Source: Candidatus Woesearchaeota archaeon (GTDB lineage Archaea; Nanobdellota; Nanobdellia; Woesearchaeales; SM23-78). From it: a stretch of DNA of 46,563 nt. A program made the position numbers and the translations under genes. The DNA lies in the NCBI GenBank assembly GCA_016935175.1, contig JAFGRK010000002.1:1-46563 (forward strand), written 5' to 3'. A model generated the notes under the pieces. It was not told where the DNA came from. It did not search any database and saw only the letters and a list, made by a program, of their open reading frames with translations. This document shows, one piece after another, positions 8,468-24,452 of the stretch (its first letter is position 1; each line of letters begins with the position of its first letter).

Positions 8468-9475
8468 ATGATTGTTGCTATCCTTTTATTGGTTCTTGGG
8501 CTGGCATTGCTCTGGTTTGGGGCTGACTTCATCATTGAGGGTGCTAAGAAGCTTGCCCAGCGCTTCAAGCTGTCGCATGCTTTTGTCGGGCTCACCATCG
8601 TGAGCATAGGCACTTCCCTGCCTGAGATTTCTACTACCATCGCATCTGCCCTTGATATATTGAAAGGAGTGCCTGCCAGCGGCATAGGCATTGGAGTTAA
8701 CATCGGGGCCTGCATAGGCCAGATAACCTTGGTCATCGGATTGGTGGCTTATGCTAGCGTACTCCACACCAAAAAGAAGAGCCTTATCAGGGATGGTGTC
8801 TTTATTCTCTTTTCAATCCTAACCCTTTTCATAATGGGCATGAACGGCTTTATCAGCAGGGAAGAAGGCGTAATATTGCTTATGCTTTTCCTGGTATACT
8901 TATTCATGGTAAGCATTGAAGAAAGAGAAGACCAGTTACTCAGGGAAGTGAAAGAGGAGCTGAGGGAAGAGGACTTAATCGAGCTTAAGTCCAGGAAGCT
9001 AATCCACCATCCCTTGGTGGTGGGGTTGATAATGCTTGGAGGATTTGCCTTGTTGGGTGTTGGCAGCGCCTTGGTGCTTAAGAACGCCCTTGCCTTGTCA
9101 GAATCCCTTAGCCTGACGCAAAGCTTTGTAGGAGTCCTTATAGTCGGCATTGGCGGCTTTCTTCCTGAATTGTCAACTGCCATCAAGGGCATCCTTAAGA
9201 AAGAATCTGAAATCAGCTTGGGTGTGCTCATAGGCTCTAATATCACTAACCCATTATTCTCCATTGGGCTTGGAGCATTCATCTCTGGCTTTGAGTTCAA
9301 CAGGAACCTTTTGATATTTGACATGCCTTTCTGGGCTCTTTCAGCATTGCTTGTAATCATGATGCTAAGGAAGAACATGAGGATTCATAAGCATGAGAAG
9401 AAGCAAGGCCTGGCATTGATGGGCTTGTACGCTCTTTTTGTTATCATGAAATTCGTGTTCTTCAGGCACGCATAG
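8468..9475 (+). CDS. Ca2+/cation antiporter (CaCA family, YrbG/NCX-like)
   Basis: 335 aa with two alpha-repeat signatures (GTSLPEISTTIASA and GSNITNPLFSIGLGA) and about 10 TM helices. Confidence 0.85.
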   Translation: MIVAILLLVLGLALLWFGADFIIEGAKKLAQRFKLSHAFVGLTIVSIGTSLPEISTTIASALDILKGVPASGIGIGVNIGACIGQITLVIGLVAYASVLHTKKKSLIRDGVFILFSILTLFIMGMNGFISREEGVILLMLFLVYLFMVSIEEREDQLLREVKEELREEDLIELKSRKLIHHPLVVGLIMLGGFALLGVGSALVLKNALALSESLSLTQSFVGVLIVGIGGFLPELSTAIKGILKKESEISLGVLIGSNITNPLFSIGLGAFISGFEFNRNLLIFDMPFWALSALLVIMMLRKNMRIHKHEKKQGLALMGLYALFVIMKFVFFRHA

Positions 9476-9648
9476 GAAAGCCTTTTTCGTCTTCAGGCAC
9501 TAGGAATGCCTTTCTCATCTTGATTATCACTGGCGAAAAGCTTATAATAAGGTCGATATTGCCTGGCAGTAGCTGTTTGCATGGCATTGCTGTTTGCTTG
9601 GCGTTAGCTGTTATTTTTGCCTGCCAGTGGTTGAAAAAGTGATGATAC

Positions 9649-10185
9649 ATGCTTATTGTTAGTGGCACAAAAAAGAGCATCACTCCAGAACTAGAAGAGC
9701 TGGTGCAAGAATATGCTGTTAGGGCAAGGAAGCTAGATAAAATACTTGGTGTTCTGACAAAGGATTATTGCGCAACCAGGTGCCCTTCTGCGCCTATAGG
9801 CTGCTGTGATGAAGACCATTACCTTCAAGGCATAGATTATAGTTTAGTGGACATTTTTAATCAAATGCATCAAGAAGAGTCTAAGGGAAAAATCCCTATT
9901 GGCAGGAAGCCCCAGTCTGCCTGTGATTATCATACCGAGCATGGCTGTGTACTTGAGACTAAGCCGCCAGTCTGCCTGGGCTACATGTGCCAGCAGCTGT
10001 CTGACAATATCCTATTGAGATACCGCTTAGAGCGGGATCTTGAGCCCAGGGCTTTTGATTTCCTCAATTTCATGGATAGGTTCCACTCAATAAAGCTCTC
10101 AAAGCATGATTCGCCAAGATTATTCTATTATATGGACAAGGCAATAGTGGCAGGCAATGCATTGCTGGGTTTTAAGAATCCATGA
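9649..10185 (+). CDS. Cysteine-rich hypothetical protein (possible metal-binding)
   Basis: 178 aa with Cys clusters CATRCPSAPIGCC and CDYHTEHGC..PPVCLGYMC. No family assignment. Confidence 0.5.
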   Translation: MLIVSGTKKSITPELEELVQEYAVRARKLDKILGVLTKDYCATRCPSAPIGCCDEDHYLQGIDYSLVDIFNQMHQEESKGKIPIGRKPQSACDYHTEHGCVLETKPPVCLGYMCQQLSDNILLRYRLERDLEPRAFDFLNFMDRFHSIKLSKHDSPRLFYYMDKAIVAGNALLGFKNP

Positions 10186-10213
10186 GCCTTGTGTTTCTAT
10201 GGCTTTTGAGAGC

Positions 10214-12949
10214 CTATGACTTTACCACGAACTTGCTTAGCTCCATAAGCACAAATCCAGTGCTGGCCATGCCAAGTATCAGCACCCAGTCAAGCAATAG
10301 CAAGGGCACTGTCCCGAATATAGCCTGGAAAGGCTTAAGGTAAATCACTATGAGCTGGATGGCTATTGACAATGACACTCCCCCTAGCAGCCATGGGTTG
10401 GAGAAAGGGTTGAGGTGCTTGATGGAGTGGTGAAGGGTCCTGCTGCTCATCACAGCAAACATCTGGAACATCACCAGCGTGGTGAAAGCCACTGTCTGGG
10501 CTTTGGCTAAATCAGTGCTCCTGTACATGTTGAACAACAGCAGAGTGCCTAATCCCATTATCAGGCCAAAAAAGATTATGGACATGAAGAGCTGCTTGGT
10601 TATAGGGTTTTCTTTGGGGTTCCTGGGCTTTCTTTTCATGATGTTCTCCTCGCTTGACTCAAAGCCCAGCCCTAGCGCAGGGAAATTATCAGTGAGCAGG
10701 TTCATCATCAATATCTGGAGGGGCAGCATAGGCAATGGAAGCCCTATCATTATAGCGACAAACACAGAGGTTATCTCCCCTGAGTTGCATGACAGGAAGA
10801 ACTTCACTGACTTTATCATCTTGTCATAGATGTTTCTCCCTTCCTCTATGGCGTTGACTATGCTGGCAAAATTATCATCCTCAAGAACTGCCTTGGAAAC
10901 TTCCTTGGCAACATCTGTGCCTGTGATGCCCATGGCTATGCCTATGTCTGCCTTTTTCAAAGCAGGAGCGTCATTAACCCCGTCTCCAGTCATGGCAACC
11001 ACATGCCCTTTCTTTTGCAGGGCTTCCACAATCCTGAGCTTCTGTATCGGCATAGCCCTGGCTATTATCCTTATGCCCTCGACTTTCTCCTGGAGCTCAT
11101 CATCGCTCATGTTCTCGACTTCATCACCTGTGAGGACTATGTCTCCCTCGCTGAAAAGCCCTATCTGCTGGGCAACAGCCTTGGTGGTTATGGGGTGGTC
11201 TCCTGTTATCACCATCACCTTGATGCCTGCTTCATAGCAGCGCGCAATAGCATCCTTGACTTCATCCCTTGGAGGGTCAATCATGCCTACTAATCCTACG
11301 AAAACAAGGTCTTTCTCAATGTTTGCAATAGTGCACTTGCCAGGCTTGATACCCTTAGGCACTTTCCTGTAAGCCAAAGCCAGCACTCTCAAGGCTTGGG
11401 CTGCAAAAGAATTATTCATGCTCATGATGAGCTGGCGGTCTTTCTTGGTCAAAGCCCTTACCTTGCCCTTGTCAAGGATTGACTTGCAGGCTTTCAGCAA
11501 GAGGTCAGGCGCTCCCTTGACATAAGCTTCCCTTTGCTTTGTACCCTTATCAAAGTATACTGTGCTCATCCTTTTCCTGTCAGAGTCAAAAGGCAATTCA
11601 CATTCTTGCGAGCAAGAGCTGAGCAGCTCCTCTTCCTTTAACCCTCCTTTTTCACCTAGAACGACCAGCGAGCCTTCAGTCGGGTCCCCTATGATTTCAA
11701 AATTTCCGTCTTTCTTTACCAGCTTGGCATTGTTGCACAAGTAGCCTATGCGCAATAGGAGGCTCAGTTGCTTAGGGTAAATCTTATCATTGTTGCCCTG
11801 ATCCTCATTATTACCCTGCTTACCATTCTTGCCCTTCTTATTTCTCTCCTTATAGAATTCACCTACAGGAGTATAGCCAGAGCCAGTGACGCTGATGATG
11901 GAATTATTAGTGAATATCCTGGTGACTGTCATCTGGTTCTTGGTCAAGGTCCCTGTCTTGTCAGTGCAGATGAAAGTGGCAGCCCCAAGGCTTTCAGCGG
12001 CAGGCAGCTTCTTAACCAGCATGTTTTTCTTGGCCAGCCTGTTGGCGCCCATGGAAAGGCTTACAGTCACTACTAATGGCAGGGAGTTAGGGATGGTCGA
12101 AACAGTGAGAGCAAGGGCGAATAAGAGCATCTTCTCAACTGACAATATTCCCTGGATGAAGCCAGTGATGAACACTGCAGCCACCAGGAAGACTACTACT
12201 ATGCCTATCTGCTTTGCAAGCTTGGTGAACTTCTCCTGCAAAGGAGTCTTAACTTCAGAAGTTTCATGTAAAGAGGCAGCTATCTTGCCGAATTCAGTGC
12301 TAAGGCCTGTGCTTATCACCACGCACTTGCCCTTGCCATAAGTCACTGCTGTGCCTGCAAAAGCCATGTTCTCCTGGTCTGCGACAGAGACTGGCTTGCA
12401 GTAAGCCTCAACAACTTTTTTAGAAGGCAAAGACTCTCCTGTGAGCGAAGCCTCGTTTATCTCCAGGCTTGAGACTTCAATGATTCTCATGTCAGCAGGC
12501 ACATTATCCCCTGCCTCTATGATTACAATATCCCCTGGGACCAATTCCTTTGCAAGCACTACTTGTTCCTTGCCGTCACGTATGACTTTTGCATGGGGCG
12601 TTGAGAGCTTTTCTAAAGCCTCCATTGCCTTCTCAGCCCTGTACTCCTGGACGAACCCCAGTATTGCGTTGAGCAATAGGATTCCGAAGATGGCAATAGC
12701 CTCAACCCTTTCTCCCAGCACCAATGATATCATACCTGCTACGAACAGCAAGATTATCATAGTATCCTTGAACTGGTTAAGGAAAAGGATTACTGCAGTC
12801 AGCTTCTTAGACTTAGGAAGCTCGTTCTTGCCGTACTTTTCAAGCCTTGACTGGGCTTCAGGGGAGCTCAGGCCATTGGAAGCAGAGCTAGACAAGCCTT
12901 TTATAACCTCATCAGGAGAAATGCAATGATAGTTTTCCATGGCTACCAA
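10214..12949 (-). CDS. P-type cation-transporting ATPase, P2-type (SERCA/PMCA-like)
   Basis: 911 aa. Phosphorylation site CTDKTGTLT, hinge MTGDGVNDAPALKKADIGIAMG, and a TM6 NLLTDNFPALGLGFE motif are present. The TM4 motif is IPNSLP rather than canonical IPEGLP. A Lys/Asn/Gly-rich low-complexity insert lies in the cytoplasmic domain. Confidence 0.9.
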   Translation of the reverse strand: MVAMENYHCISPDEVIKGLSSSASNGLSSPEAQSRLEKYGKNELPKSKKLTAVILFLNQFKDTMIILLFVAGMISLVLGERVEAIAIFGILLLNAILGFVQEYRAEKAMEALEKLSTPHAKVIRDGKEQVVLAKELVPGDIVIIEAGDNVPADMRIIEVSSLEINEASLTGESLPSKKVVEAYCKPVSVADQENMAFAGTAVTYGKGKCVVISTGLSTEFGKIAASLHETSEVKTPLQEKFTKLAKQIGIVVVFLVAAVFITGFIQGILSVEKMLLFALALTVSTIPNSLPLVVTVSLSMGANRLAKKNMLVKKLPAAESLGAATFICTDKTGTLTKNQMTVTRIFTNNSIISVTGSGYTPVGEFYKERNKKGKNGKQGNNEDQGNNDKIYPKQLSLLLRIGYLCNNAKLVKKDGNFEIIGDPTEGSLVVLGEKGGLKEEELLSSCSQECELPFDSDRKRMSTVYFDKGTKQREAYVKGAPDLLLKACKSILDKGKVRALTKKDRQLIMSMNNSFAAQALRVLALAYRKVPKGIKPGKCTIANIEKDLVFVGLVGMIDPPRDEVKDAIARCYEAGIKVMVITGDHPITTKAVAQQIGLFSEGDIVLTGDEVENMSDDELQEKVEGIRIIARAMPIQKLRIVEALQKKGHVVAMTGDGVNDAPALKKADIGIAMGITGTDVAKEVSKAVLEDDNFASIVNAIEEGRNIYDKMIKSVKFFLSCNSGEITSVFVAIMIGLPLPMLPLQILMMNLLTDNFPALGLGFESSEENIMKRKPRNPKENPITKQLFMSIIFFGLIMGLGTLLLFNMYRSTDLAKAQTVAFTTLVMFQMFAVMSSRTLHHSIKHLNPFSNPWLLGGVSLSIAIQLIVIYLKPFQAIFGTVPLLLLDWVLILGMASTGFVLMELSKFVVKS

Positions 12950-13075
12950 TTCCCAACCTCTTCTTATAAATATCCTCTTTTTTGCCTGGCTCTTTTATAA
13001 CTCTTTCCTTATACTAAGGGTTTATTAATGTTTTGGAAAAATATGCATTCATTGAAAAAAGAAGTGACTGGATGC

Positions 13076-13699
13076 TCACTCTACCTTGCATTCCTCAAGC
13101 CAGGGTTCCTTGTAGATTTCTTTAACCATCCTGTTGATGCTGTCACGTGAGCCTTCAATAAGGTATTTGATGGTTACCTTGCTGTTCTTCTTCTCTATGT
13201 GCACGCTTATCATCTTGTGGCTCTGGGTGTGGATGGCAAAAATGCTCTTGAGCTCCTTTTCCCCTATTACTTTGTTGGCTACCAGGGTCATCCTTCGCTG
13301 GTAAGAGCCTACCCCTGTCTTTTCCAGGCGCGCATCAAAGATGAGAATCGACCATATTAGCAGGTAGATTATTGCTGCAAGGAAGTATTCTCCCACGCCA
13401 ATAATCAGTCCTAGGCTTGCAAACAGCCAGATGCTTGCTGCGCTCACAGCGCCCATAAGCTTTTCTCCAGTCTTAATCAAGGCCCCTGCGCCTAGGAAAC
13501 CTATGCCTGTGATGATGGCTGCCATGAGATGGGGTGATTCCATGTCTGAAGCAACAATTGCCAGGCCGCATGCTCCTATAGCCACGAAGGTATACGTGCC
13601 AAATCCTAAGGGCTTATGCGCTTTCTGCCTTTGCATGCCAAAAGCAAATGACAGCGCAAAGGTTATTAGGATTTTCAGCAATACTACCAAAGCATTCAT
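13076..13699 (-). CDS. mgtC: MgtC/SapB-family membrane protein
   Basis: 207 aa. It has the MgtC N-terminal membrane domain (LKILITFALSFAFGMQRQ...) and a C-terminal soluble domain. It lies directly upstream of, and co-directional with, the P-type ATPase. Confidence 0.8.
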   Translation of the reverse strand: MNALVVLLKILITFALSFAFGMQRQKAHKPLGFGTYTFVAIGACGLAIVASDMESPHLMAAIITGIGFLGAGALIKTGEKLMGAVSAASIWLFASLGLIIGVGEYFLAAIIYLLIWSILIFDARLEKTGVGSYQRRMTLVANKVIGEKELKSIFAIHTQSHKMISVHIEKKNSKVTIKYLIEGSRDSINRMVKEIYKEPWLEECKVE

Positions 13700-14086: not shown

Positions 14087-16360
14087 GTGAATAATAAAGC
14101 CTCTGCCTTAGGGCTAGCCATAGTATTCTTCTTTTTTCTAGAGCTAACACTAGCATTTGCAGCCTGCACCACTGAAAATACCCCTCGAATTATATCTGCT
14201 GATTATTTTGAGCTGTATGAAGGCTTAACGTTTGTGAACGACTTTAATGTCAGCAACATGCTAGAGGAGAGCATCAATTATGCTTATGCATCAGTGGACC
14301 CTGGGTTGTCAGGCATAAGCATAGATAAACAAGGGGTGCTGAAGTTTACCCCTGCAGATTCTGAGACTGGCTTGCACAGGGTTGCTGTATTGGCTGTGAA
14401 GGATGATTGCTCAGACACCAGGATCATAACTTTCAGGATTTTTGACAGGCCTGACATAACCTCCTTTGACCCTGCTGATTCCTTTGTCCAGATAAGCCAG
14501 GCAGAGACCCTCCTGTTCAGGATAAGCGCAGTGGATAGGGATGAGAACGAAAGCCTGTCTTACCTATGGTTTGTCGGCTCAAAGCTCATCAATGATTCAA
14601 TTAATAAGACTACCATATTCTTCAATCCTGGATTTGATATATCAGGGACCCAGGAGCTAAGCGTGAATGTGACTGATTCCAAGGGCCTTATGAGAAAGAA
14701 GTCATGGAGCTTGCAAGTGTCCAAGGTCAACAGGCCCCCTGTGCTGATGTTCAACATCCCTAACTTCATGATTTTCTGGAATACTGCGTCAGGAGCCTAT
14801 AACCTGGCTGATTATTTCAAGGACCCAGAAGGAGGGTTGCTTAATTACTCCCATCGCCAAGTTATCCCTCAGTTTGAGGTCAAGGGATTGGCTTATGCCA
14901 ACGTCACTGTGAAGATAGACGGCACAAGCTTTGTCACTTATGACCCTATAATTAACACCAGCGGCTATACTTATTTTGTCTTCACAGCAACTGACATGCT
15001 AGGGTTAAGCACTGACAGCAACATTGTAAAGGTGGAAGTGGTTGGCAGCGACGATTTCCAGGACCTTGAAAGCGCTTCGCAAAAGGATTATTGCGGAGAC
15101 AAGATATGCAGCGTGCTTGAGGATTGCAAGAGCTGCCCTTATGATTGCGGTGAGTGCGAAGGGGAGCAGGAGACTGGCTGCAAGCCTGATTGGAACTGCA
15201 CAGAATGGGGTCCTTGCCAGCCTGCAGGCTTCCAGGTTAGGAATTGCACTGACAACAATGAGTGCGAGGATAACAGGAGCAAGCCTGATGAGATTAAGAG
15301 ATGCATCTATAATGCTACTTGCGATGATGGCTTGAAGAATGGGATTGAGGAAGGTGTTGATTGTGGCGGCCCATGCGGCCCTTGCCCTACCTGCCTTGAC
15401 GGGATTCAGAACCAGGGCGAGGAAGGTGTTGATTGCGGAGGGCCTTGCAGTGATGCATGCCCTTCATGCAATGACACCATCCTGAACCAGAACGAGTCTG
15501 ATGTTGATTGCGGGGGCTCTTGCCCTGGTTGCGCAGGAGGCAAGCTATGCCTGGGCTCCCATGATTGCGAAAGCCTGAAGTGCATCTCAGGATTATGCAC
15601 TTACCCTAGCTGCGATGACGAGGTAAAGAACCAGGGTGAGGAAGGCATTGATTGCGGAGGCCCTTGCACTAAGCTTTGCGGCAACTGTTCAGATGGGATG
15701 CAGAACCGTGGTGAGGAAGGTGTTGATTGTGGAGGAAGATGCCCTCCGTGCCCAAGATGTGATGATGGCATACTAAATGATAATGAGACTATGGTTGACT
15801 GCGGCGGCGTATGCAGGGAATGCGGCTTTGCTGACTATTTCAACAAGTACCGATTGCTGTTCATAGCTATTTTTGTAATATTAGGATTCATACCTTTGCT
15901 GCTGGTGACTTACTTCTTCTTCCTCCTGGCAAGCCTTGACAGGGCAAGAAAGCTTTATGAGAACAACACCGCCTTTGCATTCATCGTAGGCACTAACAGG
16001 TTCTTGCGCAAATTCAGGAGGATGAGAGGCAAAGGCCCTGCCTTGAATGAGTCTGCCATAAACACCTTCATAGGGGAGCTTATGTCCATGGCCAAGAGGC
16101 CTGACTTGACCAGTAAGCAGCTATATGACGAGATAGCCAAGATTTATTCTGCAGTGCTAGGCTTGTCAGAGGATTCTGACCAGCACTCATTCCAAGCCAA
16201 GATAAGAGGCTCAAGCCTACCCTTGTTACTGAAAGTCCTGTACGCAGGCTATTACAAGAAGGCAGATATACTAGCCATGGCTACTTATGTAGCCCCAGAG
16301 CAGAGAATTGACATGATAATGGAATTGCAGTTCCTGCTAAGCGAGGCTGCGAAGGGCTAG
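14087..16360 (+). CDS. Large secreted/membrane-anchored surface protein with Ig/cadherin-like N-terminal region and 6 tandem Cys-rich repeats; C-terminal TM anchor
   Basis: 757 aa with a GTG start. It has a signal peptide (ALGLAIVFFFFLELTLAFAAC), a repeat core C-x-D-G-x-x-N-x-x-EEGVDCGG-x-C-x-x-C occurring six times, and a TM helix (LLFIAIFVILGFIPLLLVTYFFFLL) followed by a cytoplasmic tail. Confidence 0.75.
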   Translation: MNNKASALGLAIVFFFFLELTLAFAACTTENTPRIISADYFELYEGLTFVNDFNVSNMLEESINYAYASVDPGLSGISIDKQGVLKFTPADSETGLHRVAVLAVKDDCSDTRIITFRIFDRPDITSFDPADSFVQISQAETLLFRISAVDRDENESLSYLWFVGSKLINDSINKTTIFFNPGFDISGTQELSVNVTDSKGLMRKKSWSLQVSKVNRPPVLMFNIPNFMIFWNTASGAYNLADYFKDPEGGLLNYSHRQVIPQFEVKGLAYANVTVKIDGTSFVTYDPIINTSGYTYFVFTATDMLGLSTDSNIVKVEVVGSDDFQDLESASQKDYCGDKICSVLEDCKSCPYDCGECEGEQETGCKPDWNCTEWGPCQPAGFQVRNCTDNNECEDNRSKPDEIKRCIYNATCDDGLKNGIEEGVDCGGPCGPCPTCLDGIQNQGEEGVDCGGPCSDACPSCNDTILNQNESDVDCGGSCPGCAGGKLCLGSHDCESLKCISGLCTYPSCDDEVKNQGEEGIDCGGPCTKLCGNCSDGMQNRGEEGVDCGGRCPPCPRCDDGILNDNETMVDCGGVCRECGFADYFNKYRLLFIAIFVILGFIPLLLVTYFFFLLASLDRARKLYENNTAFAFIVGTNRFLRKFRRMRGKGPALNESAINTFIGELMSMAKRPDLTSKQLYDEIAKIYSAVLGLSEDSDQHSFQAKIRGSSLPLLLKVLYAGYYKKADILAMATYVAPEQRIDMIMELQFLLSEAAKG

Positions 16361-16397: not shown

Positions 16398-16841
16398 TTA
16401 TTCCTGCCTAACAACATTCTCATGATACATGTTCAGTATTTTTGAATAAAAGTCTCTTTGCTCAGGAGTCATTGGAGTTATGTTGTTTAACACAATAGGG
16501 TTTTTCGCATCTGGCGCAACATAGTGCTTGACTCTGTGAACAGGTATGAACATCATGTCTCGCACTAAGTTAGGAAGCAACCCGGGATCTCCTTCATAGA
16601 TGAATGCTTCGTCTGCTGTCACTTTTCCGTTTGCATCATGCTTTCCATCCAGGTCAAGTATTCTTACCATTAAACCTGGCTTGTAAGGGTCTTCTTTGCT
16701 GTATGTATGAATGACTGCTTCCTGCTGGTAATTAACTTCTCCTAATTTTGCATGTTCTACTTTTGGCCCGCATGCAGAAAACGCAAGCAATCCTGCCAAT
16801 CCCATCGCCATTATCTTTTTTGGTAGTTTCATATTAAACAC
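16398..16841 (-). CDS. Secreted lipoprotein, hypothetical
   Basis: 147 aa with a signal peptide and lipobox-like LAFSAC. A strong SD (AAAGGAGGTG) lies upstream. Confidence 0.6.
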   Translation of the reverse strand: MFNMKLPKKIMAMGLAGLLAFSACGPKVEHAKLGEVNYQQEAVIHTYSKEDPYKPGLMVRILDLDGKHDANGKVTADEAFIYEGDPGLLPNLVRDMMFIPVHRVKHYVAPDAKNPIVLNNITPMTPEQRDFYSKILNMYHENVVRQE

Positions 16842-16950: not shown

Positions 16951-17703
16951 ATGGATGAGATAGACCTTGAGAAGCTGGGACTAAATAGGAACGAGGCAAG
17001 AGTCTACTATGCACTAATACAGAAGAAGGAAGCGACAGCAGCAGAAATTATCAAGATAACAGGGGCGCACAGGGGAATAGTGTATGATAACCTTGAGCGC
17101 TTAATAGAGAAGGGGCTTGTGTCTTTTGTGATGAAAGAAGGAAAGAAGTATTTTGTGGCAGAAGAGCCAGAAGCCATCATTGACTTCCTTGACTTAAAAA
17201 AGCAAGCAATAGATTCGGAGATAAAAAATGCCCGCAAGCTTATGCCAGAGATATCCAAGTACCTAAAAGCGCAGGCAGAGGAGAAGTCAGACACACGAGT
17301 GTTTCGCGGCGCAAAGGGGGTGAAAAAGGTCCTTGCTGAAATACTGACTGCTAAAGAAAGCTGGTGTATTGGCATGACAAACGAATCTGTTAATGTCCTG
17401 AGCACGAATTACTGGGAGAACTACAATGCTAAAGTAAATGATTTGAAGATAAAGGAGCATTTCCTGCTTAACGCTGACTACAAGGATACCTATTTTTTTG
17501 ACAAGATAAAGACAGTTGACTACAGAAGGCTTCCTCCTGAGCTTAACCAAATGACAGAGATAGTGCTTTACAATAACAGCATAGCAATTTTCATATTCAC
17601 AAGAATTCCAACCGTGGTTGTCATTGATGACAAGAACCTGTTCCAAACCTTCAAGCAGCAGTTTGACTTATTCTGGAAGATGTCCAAGCCTGGCAAAGGT
17701 TAA
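16951..17703 (+). CDS. TrmB-family transcriptional regulator
   Basis: 250 aa with an N-terminal wHTH (LNRNEARVYYALIQKKEATAAEIIKITGAHRGIVYDNLERLIEKGLV) and a C-terminal sensor-like domain. Confidence 0.8.
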   Translation: MDEIDLEKLGLNRNEARVYYALIQKKEATAAEIIKITGAHRGIVYDNLERLIEKGLVSFVMKEGKKYFVAEEPEAIIDFLDLKKQAIDSEIKNARKLMPEISKYLKAQAEEKSDTRVFRGAKGVKKVLAEILTAKESWCIGMTNESVNVLSTNYWENYNAKVNDLKIKEHFLLNADYKDTYFFDKIKTVDYRRLPPELNQMTEIVLYNNSIAIFIFTRIPTVVVIDDKNLFQTFKQQFDLFWKMSKPGKG

Positions 17704-17738: not shown

Positions 17739-19091
17739 ATGAAAATAATTGCTGACCTGCACATCCACTCAAGGTATTCTAGAGCTTGCTCTTCTGACTT
17801 ATCAATCCCTAACCTTGAGAAATGGGCAAGAGTCAAGGGTTTAGGGCTTCTTGGCACTGGGGACTTCTCCCATCCAGAATGGCAGGAGGAGCTCAGGAAA
17901 TATCTTAAGGAGGATGGCTCAGGCATCTTGCGCACAGAATCAGGCTTTGCTTTTGTTTTGCAGAACGAAGTCTCGCTGATGTACAGCCAGGGTGGCAAGG
18001 GAAGAAGGATTCACCTGGTTCTTCTTGCTCCTAGCTTTGAAGTTGTCGATAAAATCACTTCCTATTTGAAATCCAAGGGAAGGGTTGATTATGATGGCAG
18101 GCCGATATTCAATATATCGTGCATTGAGTTTGCTGAGGCCATGCTCAAGATAAGCGACCAGATTGAGATTATCCCAGCTCATGCCTGGACCCCGTGGTTC
18201 GGCATCTTTGGCAGCAAGACAGGATTTGACAGCATAGAAGAGTCTTTTGGGCCTTTTGCAAAGAGCATCCATGCTATTGAGTCAGGATTGTCAAGTGACC
18301 CTGAGATGAATTGGCGATTGTCCAGGCTTGATAATTATAATATAGTTAGCTTTTCAGACAGCCACTCTTATTGGCCTTGGAGGATTGGGAGGGAAGCTAC
18401 TGTATTTGATTTCGAAGAGGAGGGATTCACCTACTCTAACCTTATCAAGGCCTTGCGCACAGGGGAAGGGTTGGTTGAGACTATCGAGGTTGACCCTGGC
18501 TATGGAAAGTATCACTATGACGGCCATAGGGATTGCAAGGTAAGCTTCAGCCCGGAAGAGACTAAAAAGCTAAAAGGAATGTGCCCTGTGTGCAAACGCC
18601 CATTGACTATTGGAGTGCTTAACCGTGTTGACAATCTTGCTGATAGGGAAGAAAAGGGAGTGCGGGAAGGATTTAGGCCTGCAAATGCCAAGCCTTTCAG
18701 GAGGATAATCCCTTTGCATGATATCATCGCCCTTGCATTGCAGAGCGGAGTTGCGACAAAAAAATCATGGGCTAAGTATTACGAGATAATGAAGATAGGC
18801 AAGGATGAGTTTGACATCTTGCTTGATATTCCTGAGGAGAAATTGCTTGAAGCTGCAGAAAGCGGCGTTGACAAGGAAATCGCTGGTTTAATCATTAAGA
18901 ACAGGCGCGGAGAGATAGCCATAAAGCCAGGCTATGACGGTGAGTACGGAGTGCCAATAATCGGCGGCAGGGAGATGAAGATGGAAAGCGGTGATGAGGA
19001 TAAGAGAGAAAAGCCAAAGAAAGAAAAGTCCAGGGAAGCAGAAGAAGCTCCTGAAAAAAAGAGTCAGACTGGCCTCGGAGCATATTTCTAG
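17739..19091 (+). CDS. PHP-domain protein, Endonuclease Q (EndoQ)-like, with Glu/Lys-rich C-terminal tail
   Basis: 450 aa. The N-terminal PHP motif ADLHIHSRYSRACS and a Zn-finger-like GHRDC...(17)...CPVCKRPLTIGVLNRVDNLADRE match my memory of the EndoQ architecture. Confidence 0.55.
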   Translation: MKIIADLHIHSRYSRACSSDLSIPNLEKWARVKGLGLLGTGDFSHPEWQEELRKYLKEDGSGILRTESGFAFVLQNEVSLMYSQGGKGRRIHLVLLAPSFEVVDKITSYLKSKGRVDYDGRPIFNISCIEFAEAMLKISDQIEIIPAHAWTPWFGIFGSKTGFDSIEESFGPFAKSIHAIESGLSSDPEMNWRLSRLDNYNIVSFSDSHSYWPWRIGREATVFDFEEEGFTYSNLIKALRTGEGLVETIEVDPGYGKYHYDGHRDCKVSFSPEETKKLKGMCPVCKRPLTIGVLNRVDNLADREEKGVREGFRPANAKPFRRIIPLHDIIALALQSGVATKKSWAKYYEIMKIGKDEFDILLDIPEEKLLEAAESGVDKEIAGLIIKNRRGEIAIKPGYDGEYGVPIIGGREMKMESGDEDKREKPKKEKSREAEEAPEKKSQTGLGAYF

Positions 19092-22935: not shown

Positions 22936-23042
22936 GCATCCCACGCTAAACTTCCCCCTCATTTCTCAAAATAAAATTCGGGTTTAATCTCCTTTCCACA
23001 TCTTTCTTACATCGAAGAGCGATTCAGCATCCCTTCTTGCTG

Positions 23043-24452
23043 TTAGCTCTTCTTGGCCTGCTTGCCGTCATCCTTCTTGACTTCCGCGGCATCCTCTGCG
23101 TCAGGCAGCTTCTTGCCGAGGAAATCCGGAAGCTGCAGGCCGGCGACTTCCATGATGCTGGCCAGCGGAGGGATGGACTTCACGATGCCAGAGATGAACT
23201 TGGCCGTGATAGGGGTTCCGTCGCCGTTGCCTCCGCCCATGTTGTCCCAGACAACGATCTTGCCGAAGTCGATGTTCTTGATGGCGTCGGCGTTGATGGT
23301 AGCGAGCTCCTTCATCTGCTCGATGATGAGCATGGTGGCAGCGGCCTTGGGATCTCCCCCGACAGAATCAACCAGCTTCTTGAAGCCCTCTGCCTTCTTC
23401 TCGAGGATGGCGAGGATGCCCTGGGCCTGGCCTTCCATCTCGCGCTGAACCTTGAGACCCTGCCCCATGCCTTCCTGCTCCAGGCGGATCTTCTCAGCCT
23501 CAGCTTCGTTCCTGATTTTCTCCTTCTGGAGCTCAGCAGGGACAACGATATTGATGGACTCAGAGACCTTTTCCCTTTCCCTACGCGCAGCCTCAGCTTT
23601 TTGCTCGGCCACATAAGCTTCTTCCAAGGCCTTGGCAGCGTTGACCTTCTCGGCGCTCACAGCCAGCTTGTCGGCCTCAGCCACCTTTTCCCGGCGCTCA
23701 GCATTGGACTGCGCGATCTTGACCTTGGACTTGTTCTCGCCCTCGACGGCCGTGGCATCGGCAGAAGCGACGTTGATGCGCTCAATCTTCTTGGCATCAG
23801 CCTGCCCTGTGGCGCCGTCTCTCTCCTTCTCGGCGACGTCGACGCGTGCCTGCTGGATTGCGTTAGCAGCAGCTTTCTTGCCCAGGGCCTCAATGTACCC
23901 GCTTTCGTCCGTGATGTCCTTGATGTTGACGTTGATGAGCTTCAGGCCCAGCTTCTTCAGCTCGTTCTCAACGTTGTCCTGGACTTTCTTCTCGAAAATC
24001 TCGCGATCGGTGTTGATCTCCTCGATGTCCATCGTGGCCACTGTGGTCCTGAGCTGGCCGTAGATGATCTCCTCGGCATTCTTTTCGATCTCCGGCCTCT
24101 TCATGCTCAGGAGGCGGGATGCAGCCAACTGCATTATCTCAGGCTCAGTGGAGATGGCAATCGTGAACCTGGAAGGCACATTGATGCGGATATTCTGCTT
24201 GGAGAGCGCGTTCTTCAGGTCGATATCGATGGTCATGGGTGTGAGATCCAGGAAGCCATAGTCCTGAATCATAGGCCAGATGAACTTGGCTCCTCCGTGC
24301 TGGCACTTGCCGGCTTGCTTGCCACCGATCTTTCCCCAGACGACCAGGATCTTGTCAGAAGGGCACCTCTTGTATCGCGCCATGGCGACCAGGAAGGTGA
24401 CGAAAGCCATGACTACAAGAGCTGCGACCAGATACAACCAAGATAAGCTCAT
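23043..24452 (-). CDS. Flotillin (SPFH/Band-7 domain, FloT/YqiK-like)
   Basis: 469 aa. It has an N-terminal TM, an SPFH domain, then a long Ala/Glu/Lys-rich coiled coil (EAEKIRLEQEG, AEQKAEAARREREK). Confidence 0.9.
   Translation of the reverse strand: MSLSWLYLVAALVVMAFVTFLVAMARYKRCPSDKILVVWGKIGGKQAGKCQHGGAKFIWPMIQDYGFLDLTPMTIDIDLKNALSKQNIRINVPSRFTIAISTEPEIMQLAASRLLSMKRPEIEKNAEEIIYGQLRTTVATMDIEEINTDREIFEKKVQDNVENELKKLGLKLINVNIKDITDESGYIEALGKKAAANAIQQARVDVAEKERDGATGQADAKKIERINVASADATAVEGENKSKVKIAQSNAERREKVAEADKLAVSAEKVNAAKALEEAYVAEQKAEAARREREKVSESINIVVPAELQKEKIRNEAEAEKIRLEQEGMGQGLKVQREMEGQAQGILAILEKKAEGFKKLVDSVGGDPKAAATMLIIEQMKELATINADAIKNIDFGKIVVWDNMGGGNGDGTPITAKFISGIVKSIPPLASIMEVAGLQLPDFLGKKLPDAEDAAEVKKDDGKQAKKS

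What the first reader, a model, noticed from the sequence alone, without database searches (positions are those of the whole stretch)
15320..15830. Six tandem ~25-aa cysteine repeats with an invariant EEGVDCGG-x-C core, including near-identical DNA copies
The surface protein carries the repeats CxDG(L/I)xN(G/Q)xEEGVDCGGPCxxCxx, one with a longer C-rich insertion. It sits between an Ig/cadherin-like N-terminal region and a C-terminal TM anchor. A preceding ~75-aa stretch holds about 14 more cysteines. I do not recognise this repeat as a named domain. The D/N/E positions suggest a disulfide-stabilised, possibly Ca-binding module. At DNA level the cores are nearly identical (GAGGAAGGTGTTGATTG(T/C)GG at about 15347, 15419, 15638 and 15713). 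This implies recent duplication and gives a substrate for repeat-number variation of a cell-surface protein.
Basis: partly seen in the sequence, partly recalled or inferred. Interest (0 to 1): 0.6.

Follow-up and report, generated by a model that had tools for sequence, protein, structure and literature searches.

The report
Unnamed cysteine-repeat stalk in archaeal adhesin
A membrane protein of a Woesearchaeota archaeon carries six copies of a small four-cysteine module that is common in secreted proteins of many bacteria and archaea but has no name, no solved structure and no literature; it most likely forms a stiff stalk, possibly stabilised by calcium, that holds adhesion domains away from the cell.

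Summary
ORF 14087-16360 (+) encodes a 757-aa protein with six tandem units C-x-D-G-x-x-N-x-x-E-x-x-[VI]-D-C-G-G-x-C-x(2,3)-C at nt 15320-15829. Unit 3 carries a 26-aa extra cysteine knot.

- **No known family:** No Pfam or NCBIfam model, PDB sequence or PDB fold matches the repeat.
- **Not rare:** A two-unit profile finds 6,394 cluster representatives. The hosts include Bacteroidota, Myxococcota, candidate-phyla-radiation (CPR) bacteria, Altiarchaeota and DPANN archaea. The proteins include metalloproteases, carbohydrate-binding proteins and type IX secretion (T9SS) cargo.
- **"Recent duplication" is not supported:** Six position-specific units persist in orthologues down to about 30% identity (46 of 53). 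Whole units share only 64-82% of their DNA, and codon sharing outside the 20-nt core is at chance level.
- **Copy-number change is rare but real:** Seven of 53 orthologues have five units. The closest relative carries an exact 72-nt deletion whose junction lies in the shared core.
- **Best reading:** A disulfide-bonded, probably Ca2+-binding spacer module forms a membrane-proximal stalk. It sits under three Ig/cadherin-like domains in a type I membrane protein that also has a 140-aa cytoplasmic helical domain.
- **Ca2+ binding is inferred:** It rests on four near-invariant D/N/E/D positions and a weak resemblance to Ca2+ site II of ADAM (a disintegrin and metalloproteinase) proteins.

The parts
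14087..16360 (+). Whole gene: 757-aa type I membrane protein (GTG start, stop included). Identical to NCBI JXB28_00245, Candidatus Woesearchaeota.
14087..14164 (+). Signal peptide, aa 1-26: hydrophobic helix ending in ...LAFA|AC. C27 is invariant in orthologues.
   Evidence: Hydropathy; AF2 helix 3-25; invariant C27
14186..15046 (+). Three tandem beta-sandwich (Ig/cadherin-like) domains, aa 34-320.
   Evidence: Pfam Big_9 E=1.7e-7 at aa 131-202 and Cadherin_5 at E=0.0012 (19.1 bits, below its 26.5-bit gathering cut-off); AF2 pLDDT about 90; Foldseek E about 1e-13 to titin I67-69, neurofascin and protocadherins over about 310-350 columns
15092..15319 (+). Cys-rich pre-region, aa 336-411, with 12 Cys. 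It holds a CGDxxC...CxxCxxDCGxC segment (aa 336-357) and a W-x-C-x-x-W-x-x-C...G-x-Q-x-R-x-C three-strand unit resembling a thrombospondin type 1 repeat (aa 365-406).
   Evidence: no Pfam hit
15320..15391 (+). Repeat unit 1, CDDGLKNGIEEGVDCGGPCGPCPT. The signature LKNGIEEG is conserved at this position in orthologues.
15392..15466 (+). Repeat unit 2, CLDGIQNQGEEGVDCGGPCSDACPS.
15467..15532 (+). Repeat unit 3 core, CNDTILNQNESDVDCGGSCPGC. The signature NQNESD is conserved at this position in orthologues.
15533..15610 (+). Extra 26-aa cysteine knot appended to unit 3, AGGKLCLGSHDCESLKCISGLCTYPS. It has four more Cys and is conserved in all orthologues. The same 'long unit' (period 48-50 aa) recurs in unrelated bacterial and archaeal proteins.
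   Evidence: non-significant Foldseek similarity to knottin toxins (E 4-9, rmsd 1.4-1.7 over 26 aa)
15611..15685 (+). Repeat unit 4, CDDEVKNQGEEGIDCGGPCTKLCGN.
15686..15757 (+). Repeat unit 5, CSDGMQNRGEEGVDCGGRCPPCPR.
15758..15829 (+). Repeat unit 6, CDDGILNDNETMVDCGGVCRECGF. The signature E-x-[LM]-x-DCGG is conserved at this position. The unit ends 7 residues before the transmembrane helix.
15347..15366 (+). 20-nt DNA core GAGGAAGGTGTTGATTGTGG in unit 1. Other copies: 15419-15438 and 15713-15732 (exact), 15638-15657 (2 mismatches).
15851..15937 (+). Transmembrane helix, aa 589-617.
   Evidence: Hydropathy; AF2 helix 589-615
15938..16357 (+). Cytoplasmic all-helical domain, aa 618-757. No Pfam or PDB match. 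Conserved in orthologues with at least about 40% identity.

Best explanation
The six repeats are copies of a widespread but uncurated extracellular mini-domain of about 24 aa: C1-x-D3-G-[IV]-x-N7-x-x-E10-x-x-[VI]-D14-C15-G-G-x-C19-x(2,3)-C22.

- **Each unit is self-contained.** Its four cysteines most likely form two disulfides.
- **Probable calcium site.** Its four near-invariant oxygen-donor residues (D3, N7, E10, D14) most likely hold one structural Ca2+.
- **Role in this protein.** The protein is a type I membrane protein of a Woesearchaeota (DPANN) archaeon. The array, together with the 12-Cys pre-region, lies directly above the transmembrane helix. It acts as a stiff, protease-resistant stalk of fixed length that presents three N-terminal Ig/cadherin-like adhesion domains outward. 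A 140-aa helical domain sits in the cytoplasm.
- **Role elsewhere.** In bacteria the same module serves as an inter-domain connector or spacer in secreted enzymes and adhesins.

Shown here: the repeat anatomy, its conservation, its distribution, the protein topology and the absence of any curated family.

Inferred: the disulfides, Ca2+ binding and the stalk role.
For: - **Anatomy and topology**: signal peptide, three beta-sandwich domains, Cys-rich region, transmembrane helix, helical tail. 16 of 18 N-x-S/T sequons lie in the ectodomain.
- **Motif conservation:** across 1,089 units in 120 proteins, C1, E10 and C15 are 100% conserved, D3 94%, D14 95%, N7 87% (plus 8% D) and G16/G17 93-94%. The period is 24-25 aa, or 48-50 aa for the long form.
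- **Four Cys per unit** also holds in single-copy occurrences and in terminal units, so each unit closes on itself.
- **Distribution:** the two-unit profile finds 6,394 proteins at E<=1e-3 and 2,601 at E<=1e-10 among 1.84e9 representatives. Partner domains are extracellular: M43 and reprolysin-like peptidases, CBM3, CBM96, CARDB, fn3, CAP, GH8 and T9SS tails. Units often sit singly or in pairs between domains.
- **Fixed copy number:** six position-specific units in 46 of 53 orthologues fits a length or geometry constraint.
- **Ca2+ lead:** ADAM Ds site II is XCGN(X)3EXGEXCD with ligands at C+2, +6, +9 and +12 (PMC4885070). Here the conserved D/N/E/D lie at C+2, +6, +9 and +13. hhalign pairs exactly these positions.
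- **N-terminal domains** resemble adhesion-molecule Ig/cadherin arrays.
Against: - No structure or experiment exists.
- AF2 confidence is moderate: 75-90 for units 1-3, below 50 around units 4-5. Only one of the five models of the isolated array is confident.
- Similarity to ADAM site II is weak: hhalign probability 17.6%, 13 of 300 column shuffles score as well, and hmmsearch against PDB returns nothing.
- Woesearchaeota are mostly anaerobes (my own knowledge), so extracellular disulfide formation is an assumption.
- A stalk role does not exclude direct ligand binding by the repeats.
Confidence: 0.55

Rival explanations
1. The repeats are themselves the binding surface. They would form an adhesive or receptor-recognition array that contacts host-cell or matrix ligands, in the way disintegrin, EGF or LDL-A modules do, rather than acting as a passive stalk.
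For: - Each of the six positions has its own conserved signature, for example LKNGIEEG in unit 1 and NQNESD in unit 3. This suggests position-specific roles beyond spacing.
- The modules accompany adhesion-type and carbohydrate-binding domains.
- DPANN and CPR organisms, which carry many such proteins, depend on cell-cell contact (my own knowledge).
Against: - The most conserved residues are the cysteines, the glycines and four buried-type acidic or amide residues. The variable positions (2, 6, 8, 9, 11, 18) show no shared binding motif across families.
- The module joins very different catalytic domains as one or two copies at domain borders. This is typical of connectors.
- In this protein the array is the membrane-proximal part, and the Ig-like domains are distal.
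Confidence: 0.2
2. The four cysteines of each unit bind a metal (Zn2+ or an Fe-S cluster) instead of forming disulfides. The run C15-x3-C19-x2-C22-x2-C1' would then be a metal-thiolate site.
For: - The spacing C-x3-C-x2-C-x2-C across unit borders, read directly from the sequence, mirrors ferredoxin-type CxxCxxCxxxC motifs (my own knowledge).
- The host is probably anaerobic (my own knowledge).
Against: - Single isolated units in bacterial proteins still have exactly four Cys, without a following C1'.
- The carriers are exported by Sec or T9SS routes in aerobic Flavobacteriia and Sorangium, where cofactor-loaded Fe-S domains are not expected.
- C3-C4 and C4-C1' spacing varies (x2 or x3, 1-5 residues), which is unlike metal sites.
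Confidence: 0.07
3. The array arose by recent tandem duplication and is a contingency locus whose copy number changes quickly to vary the cell surface.
For: - Three exact 20-nt cores and one near-exact core.
- Five-unit variants occur in 7 of 53 orthologues, with a deletion junction in the core in L001.
Against: - Six positional orthologues persist down to about 30% identity.
- Units are 64-82% identical at DNA level.
- Codon sharing is at chance level outside the core.
- Within-protein identity between units equals between-protein identity.
- The core codons are already present in orthologous genes.
- No variant has more than six units.
Confidence: 0.05

Closest known systems
Ca2+-binding site II of the disintegrin-like 'shoulder' (Ds) subdomain of ADAMs and P-III snake venom metalloproteinases, consensus XCGN(X)3EXGEXCD
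   Same: - A short disulfide-rich extracellular segment that starts with Cys.
- Oxygen-donor side chains at C+2, C+6 and C+9, and an Asp just before a Cys-Gly.
- The module often follows reprolysin-like or M43 metalloprotease domains in bacteria, as Ds follows the ADAM catalytic domain.
   Different: - The fourth ligand is shifted by one residue.
- The cysteine pattern differs: DCGG against CDCG.
- It is a free-standing tandem 24-aa unit, not part of a roughly 90-aa disintegrin domain.
- No Pfam Disintegrin hit, no hmmsearch hit against PDB and no fold match.
- The profile similarity is only marginally above composition.
Myxococcus cysteine-rich repeat (Pfam DUF4215/PF13948, TIGR02232), CGNGxxExGEECDDGN...
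   Same: A short tandem Cys-rich repeat with a G-x-x-E acidic core, found in secreted proteins and abundant in Myxococcota (motif recalled from memory). P0064 from Chondromyces carries both kinds of sequence.
   Different: - No hit to these models at E<=10 in Pfam or E<=1 in NCBIfam.
- The Cys spacing differs, and the DCGG-x-C signature is absent from that family.
Tandem Ca2+-binding extracellular modules used as rods: cbEGF, LDL-receptor class A and thrombospondin type 3 repeats
   Same: Small disulfide-bonded units with conserved D/N/E residues, arranged in tandem and placed between functional domains or next to the membrane. This comparison is about what it works like.
   Different: - No sequence or fold match.
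- The unit is shorter (24 aa, 4 Cys).
- It is prokaryotic.
CysRReps of rusticalin-like proteins (Daugavet et al., PMC7379824; bioRxiv 10.64898/2026.06.07.730663)
   Same: Uncurated cysteine-rich repeats attached to many prokaryote-type domains.
   Different: - They are described as almost exclusively eukaryotic.
- They are longer than 30 positions, with conserved Gly and Pro at other positions.
- They are likened to tick carboxypeptidase inhibitor and beta-defensin.
- Those papers contain no DCGG motif.
Inhibitor cystine knot (knottin) peptides, for the 26-aa insert of unit 3 only
   Same: Size and four to six close cysteines. Foldseek aligns 26-27 residues at rmsd 1.4-1.7 Å.
   Different: E-values of 4-9 are not significant, and the connectivity is unknown.

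Membership tests
Unnamed 'CxDGxxNxxExxxDCGGxC' module (defined here from 1,089 units) | Four Cys at positions 1, 15, 19 and 22/23 | tested here: met
   All six window units. 1,089 units in 120 proteins fit the Cys-spacing pattern used to collect them.
Unnamed 'CxDGxxNxxExxxDCGGxC' module (defined here from 1,089 units) | D3, N7, E10, D14 and G16-G17 conserved | tested here: met
   All six units have D3 (N in unit 3), N7, E10, D14 and GG. Family frequencies are 87-100%.
Unnamed 'CxDGxxNxxExxxDCGGxC' module (defined here from 1,089 units) | Tandem period of 24-25 aa, or 48-50 aa with the appended knot | tested here: met
   Window spacings are 24, 25, 48, 25 and 24 aa. The family modes are 24/25 and 48/49/50.
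Disintegrin / ADAM Ds Ca2+ site II | Significant match to the disintegrin family by sequence or profile | tested here: not met
   No Pfam hit at E<=10. The profile against PDB sequences gives 0 hits at E<=10, although ADAM and SVMP chains are in that library.
Disintegrin / ADAM Ds Ca2+ site II | Ligand pattern C-x-N-(x)3-E-x-x-E-x-x-D | tested here: inconclusive
   Three of four positions coincide and the fourth is off by one. hhalign P=0.0014 with probability 17.6%. 13 of 300 column shuffles score as high.
Disintegrin / ADAM Ds Ca2+ site II | Fold similarity to solved ADAM or SVMP D domains | tested here: not met
Disintegrin / ADAM Ds Ca2+ site II | Bound structural Ca2+ | not testable with these tools
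   Needs metal analysis or a structure.
Myxococcus cysteine-rich repeat (PF13948 / TIGR02232) | Match to the family HMM | tested here: not met
EGF-like, LDL-A, TSP type 3 and Notch/LNR repeats | Match to the family HMMs | tested here: not met
   No Pfam family hits the 170-aa array at E<=10.
Bacterial Ig-like (Big_9) / cadherin-like domains (N-terminal region only) | HMM match above the gathering score, and a beta-sandwich fold | tested here: met
   Big_9 scores 32.5 bits against a cut-off of 23.6. Foldseek E about 1e-13 to Ig and cadherin arrays.
Archaeosortase / PGF-CTERM-type sorted surface proteins | C-terminal sorting signal: a tripartite motif at the extreme C-terminus | tested here: not met
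   No NCBIfam hit. The transmembrane helix is followed by a 140-aa folded helical domain.
Rusticalin-type CysRRep (Daugavet et al.) | Repeat logo of more than 30 positions with Gly at 10, 21, 26, 30 and Pro at 29, 31; eukaryotic distribution | tested here: not met
   The description in PMC7379824 does not fit a 24-aa DCGG unit, and the distribution here is prokaryotic. No direct sequence comparison was made.

The most novel reading that the evidence does not exclude
The 24-aa DCGG unit is a new, ancient Ca2+-dependent mini-fold. It would be the free-standing prokaryotic relative of the Ca2+ 'shoulder' loop of ADAM disintegrin domains. Bacteria and archaea, notably host-dependent CPR and DPANN lineages, would use it as a general building block for rigid extracellular rods of set length. 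In this protein, together with the cytoplasmic helical domain, it would form part of a contact-sensing receptor.
Probability: 0.2. Interest if true: 0.6.

Novelty: new variant of a known kind. Interest (0 to 1): 0.4.

Why it matters
Thousands of secreted and surface proteins contain this module: at least 6,394 clusters at 50% identity. They come from cultured Flavobacteriia and Sorangium, from CPR bacteria, and from DPANN and Altiarchaeota archaea. The stretch is left blank by Pfam, NCBIfam and the PDB.

- **Annotation:** Defining the module would annotate a recurrent 'dark' segment, give a boundary marker for domain parsing, and provide a compact candidate scaffold (24 aa, two disulfides, possibly one Ca2+).
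- **DPANN biology:** It marks a conserved type I membrane protein with an adhesion-like ectodomain and a cytoplasmic domain. This is a reasonable candidate for host contact.
- **Limits:** It is not a new principle. Small Cys-rich Ca2+-binding tandem modules are well known in eukaryotes.

Tried and rejected
- **Pfam and NCBIfam** on the protein, the isolated array, the pre-region and four bacterial or archaeal carriers: nothing on the repeats.
- **PDB by sequence**, with both the protein and the profile: nothing.
- **Tandem Repeats Finder:** does not see the array, because the units are too diverged at DNA level.
- **Literature:** searches for DCGG, GVDCGG and similar strings, and for Woesearchaeota with cysteine-rich, found nothing relevant. 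The Daugavet CysRRep papers were read and judged to describe a different repeat.
- **The search for related loci** with the two-unit alignment failed for lack of a conserved stretch. I replaced it with a degenerate DNA pattern scan.
- **Alignment of 67 diverse carriers** for a bulk Pfam census failed. I replaced it with a 10-protein scan.
- **Recent duplication or gene conversion:** rejected on the unit identity matrices and codon statistics.
- **Operon link to the neighbouring cation transporters:** the synteny holds down to 43% identity but is lost in more distant orthologues. I treat it as lineage synteny, not a functional link.
- **Disulfide pairing from natural Cys-loss variants:** too few informative cases.
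Full report
**What is there**

The finding lies inside one ORF, window 14087-16360 (+), 757 aa. The ORF is identical to the NCBI entry 'hypothetical protein JXB28_00245 [Candidatus Woesearchaeota archaeon]', whose contig length equals the window.

Six units start at aa 412, 436, 461, 509, 534 and 558 (nt 15320-15829). Their spacings are 24, 25, 48, 25 and 24 aa. Each unit reads C-x-D-G-x-x-N-x-x-E-x-x-[VI]-D-C-G-G-x-C-x(2,3)-C.

Unit 3 carries an extra 26-aa segment with four more cysteines (nt 15533-15610).

The DNA core GAGGAAGGTGTTGATTGYGG occurs exactly at 15347, 15419 and 15713, and with two mismatches at 15638. Shuffles give 0.02 expected matches.

- The literal EEGVDCGG is present in three units only.
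- The preceding 76 aa hold 12 cysteines, not about 14.
- Whole units are only 64-82% identical at DNA level, too diverged for Tandem Repeats Finder.

**The protein**

Hydropathy and an AlphaFold2 model built on 53 orthologues (mean pLDDT 80) give the following layout:
- An N-terminal signal helix (aa 3-25).
- Three beta-sandwich domains (aa 34-320, pLDDT about 90).
- A Cys-rich region (aa 336-581).
- One transmembrane helix (aa 589-617).
- A 140-aa all-helical domain (aa 618-757).

The 'C-terminal anchor' is therefore really a transmembrane helix followed by a cytoplasmic domain. Sixteen of the 18 N-x-S/T sequons are in the ectodomain.

The N-terminal part hits Pfam Big_9 (E=1.7e-7) and, at E=0.0012 and below its gathering cut-off, Cadherin_5. 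As a three-domain array it matches titin Ig, neurofascin and protocadherin structures at E about 1e-13.

No archaeosortase-type signal is present. The cytoplasmic domain has no Pfam or PDB relative. It is conserved among orthologues of at least about 40% identity.

**Is the repeat a named domain?**

No.
- Pfam-A and NCBIfam give nothing on the repeats at E<=10 (Pfam) or E<=1 (NCBIfam). This holds for this protein and for bacterial and archaeal carriers.
- A two-unit profile (alignment A2) finds no PDB sequence at E<=10.
- Text searches for the motif found nothing.
- The 'CysRReps' of Daugavet et al. are a different, longer, mostly eukaryotic repeat.

**Is it rare?**

No.
- The whole-protein search returned full-length orthologues in Woesearchaeota and Nanoarchaeota (30-69% identity). 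It also returned many bacterial and archaeal proteins that match only across the repeats. These include:
  - Saprospiraceae M43 metalloproteases and reprolysin-like proteins with T9SS tails.
  - CBM3 and GH8 cellulase-type proteins.
  - Chondromyces and Sorangium CBM96/DNRLRE proteins.
  - An Altiarchaeales CARDB protein.
- Among the 120 listed proteins I counted 1,089 units.
- The two-unit profile found 6,394 proteins at E<=1e-3, and 2,601 at E<=1e-10, among 1.84 billion 50%-identity representatives.
The hosts include:
  - Cultured Flavobacteriia: Tenacibaculum, Aquimarina, Croceivirga, Winogradskyella.
  - Complete Sorangium genomes and other Myxococcota.
  - Saccharibacteria and Paceibacterota (CPR).
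  - Chloroflexota.
  - Altiarchaeota, Pacearchaeota and Woesearchaeota.
- The same pattern hit only 11 viral contigs.
- In bacterial proteins the module often occurs once or twice at domain borders. Its partners are extracellular domains.
- The long form, a unit plus a C..G..C....DC.S..C....C knot with a 48-50 aa period, is also recurrent.

**Age of the array**

In an alignment of 53 orthologues, 46 have six units and seven have five.

Each position has its own conserved signature:
- Unit 1: LKNGIEEG.
- Unit 3: NQNESD plus the knot.
- Unit 5: GGRC in the closer orthologues.
- Unit 6: E-x-L-x-DCGG.

Same-position identity between proteins (0.64-0.73) exceeds different-position identity (0.58-0.68). 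The latter equals the identity between different units within one protein (0.58-0.71). There is thus no sign of homogenisation.

At residues shared by two units, the number of identical codons is close to that expected from the window's codon usage, for example 7 against 7.0 and 8 against 7.5.

The array is therefore old, and the 'recent duplication' reading fails.

**The identical 20-nt cores**

The cores reflect an invariant peptide plus a shared codon choice, GGT-GTT. This choice is unusual for this genome, where GGT is 9% of Gly codons and GTT 22% of Val codons.

It is already present in the orthologous genes of two other genomes, L001 and L003. It is absent from more distant ones, L004-L006.

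Core codons are somewhat better conserved between orthologues (0.74-0.77) than the rest of the gene (0.51-0.58). I could not decide between an AT-rich ancestral remnant, short-tract conversion and selection on the mRNA.

**Copy-number change does occur, but rarely**

The closest relative (P0002, locus L001) has five units.
- Its first unit has the head of unit 1 and the tail of unit 2.
- At DNA level it follows window unit 1 through ...GGTGTTGATTGTGGCGGCCCATGC, and then follows unit 2.
- This is an exact 72-nt deletion whose junction lies in or just after the shared core.

P0020 shows the same chimera. Other five-unit orthologues lack one unit elsewhere: P0058 lacks unit 2, and P0033, P0040 and P0050 appear to lack one of units 4-6. 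No orthologue has more than six units.

But six units is clearly the maintained state, which itself argues that the length of the array matters.

**How it probably works**

The conserved set has three parts: four Cys; two Gly after C15; and D3, N7, E10 and D14, with hydrophobic residues at positions 5 and 13. This is typical of a small disulfide-locked loop built around a buried metal site. The acidic and amide residues are as invariant as the cysteines.

The nearest documented pattern is Ca2+ site II of the ADAM and SVMP disintegrin-like 'shoulder', XCGN(X)3EXGEXCD. There, Asn408, Glu412, Glu415 and Asp418, plus two backbone carbonyls, hold a permanently bound Ca2+ (PMC4885070).

Counting from the first Cys, those ligands sit at +2, +6, +9 and +12. 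Here the conserved residues sit at +2, +6, +9 and +13. hhalign pairs exactly these positions against six PDB-verified ADAM and SVMP segments.

The score is weak, however. The probability is 17.6%, and 13 of 300 column-shuffled controls do as well. The Cys pattern differs, and no fold match was found.

I therefore keep Ca2+ binding as the most likely inference, not as a demonstrated feature. I do not file the module as a disintegrin.

Three observations lead me to read the array as a rigid stalk of defined length that projects the Ig/cadherin-like adhesion domains:
- The array ends seven residues before the transmembrane helix.
- The module serves as a connector in unrelated secreted proteins.
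- The copy number is held at six.

The rivals are direct ligand binding by the repeats, metal-thiolate sites instead of disulfides, and a fast-varying contingency repeat. They are listed with their evidence in the Rival explanations section.

**Context**

The gene is divergently adjacent to MgtC, a P-type cation ATPase and a Na+/Ca2+ exchanger. This arrangement is kept in orthologous loci down to 43% identity. It is lost in more distant ones. I regard it as lineage synteny and only note it.

**Verdict**

This is a genuine, correctly located repeat. It belongs to a very widespread but uncurated family of 24-aa four-cysteine extracellular modules.

It is new to the databases rather than new in principle: a new variant of the known class of small disulfide-rich, probably Ca2+-binding tandem modules. 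The duplication is ancient, and copy number is nearly fixed.

Interest is moderate. The family deserves a model, a structure and a Ca2+ test.

Noticed in passing
window 8468-13699 (Na/Ca exchanger 8468-9475 +, P-type cation ATPase 10214-12949 -, MgtC 13076-13699 -): Cation-transport genes sit divergently upstream of the repeat protein. The same neighbours occur in orthologous loci L001, L003 and L004 (43% identity), and CorA lies nearby in L004 and L006. The link is lost in L005.
   Followed up: partly
window 15179-15304 (aa 365-406): A conserved W-x-C-x-x-W-x-x-C...G-x-Q-x-R-x-C unit with three or four short strands in the AF2 model. It is reminiscent of a thrombospondin type 1 repeat and has no Pfam hit.
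   Followed up: no
window 15092-15157 (aa 336-357): A conserved CGDxxC...E.C..C..DCGxC segment opens the Cys-rich region. It has low AF2 confidence and no family match.
   Followed up: no
window 15347-15732 (unit cores); L001 and L003 orthologous genes: Gly12-Val13 of the units are encoded GGT-GTT far more often than the genome's codon usage predicts (9% and 22%). The same holds in two orthologous genes but not in more distant ones. The cause is unresolved.
   Followed up: partly
L001 6001-8274 (protein P0002): The closest relative lost exactly one unit. The survivor is a unit 1-unit 2 chimera with its junction in the shared core. The protein is still 757 aa because its N-terminal region is 24 aa longer.
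   Followed up: partly
window 16398-16841 (-): A 147-aa ORF with a lipobox-like LLAFSACG and no Pfam match. This ORF and the TrmB-family regulator (16951-17703) lie between the repeat gene and the MJ0043-like gene. Those two genes are adjacent in L001 and L003.
   Followed up: no
window 23037-24452: Two ORFs of 469 aa each lie fully antisense to one another: 23037-24446 (+) and 23043-24452 (-).
   Followed up: no
L001 8315-10813: The MJ0043_C-type neighbour is 832 aa there and has a weak intein-splicing hit. It is 450 aa in the window (17739-19091) and 421 aa in L003.
   Followed up: no
proteins P0247 and P0207: Module variants. P0247 units lack C15 (ID-x-GG) and have an extra Cys three residues before C1. 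P0207 has the Cys moved to position 12 (ETCIDGGG), which recalls ADAM EECDCG.
   Followed up: no
L127-L137 (IMG/VR contigs): The module's DNA pattern occurs on 11 viral contigs. I did not examine the genes.
   Followed up: no
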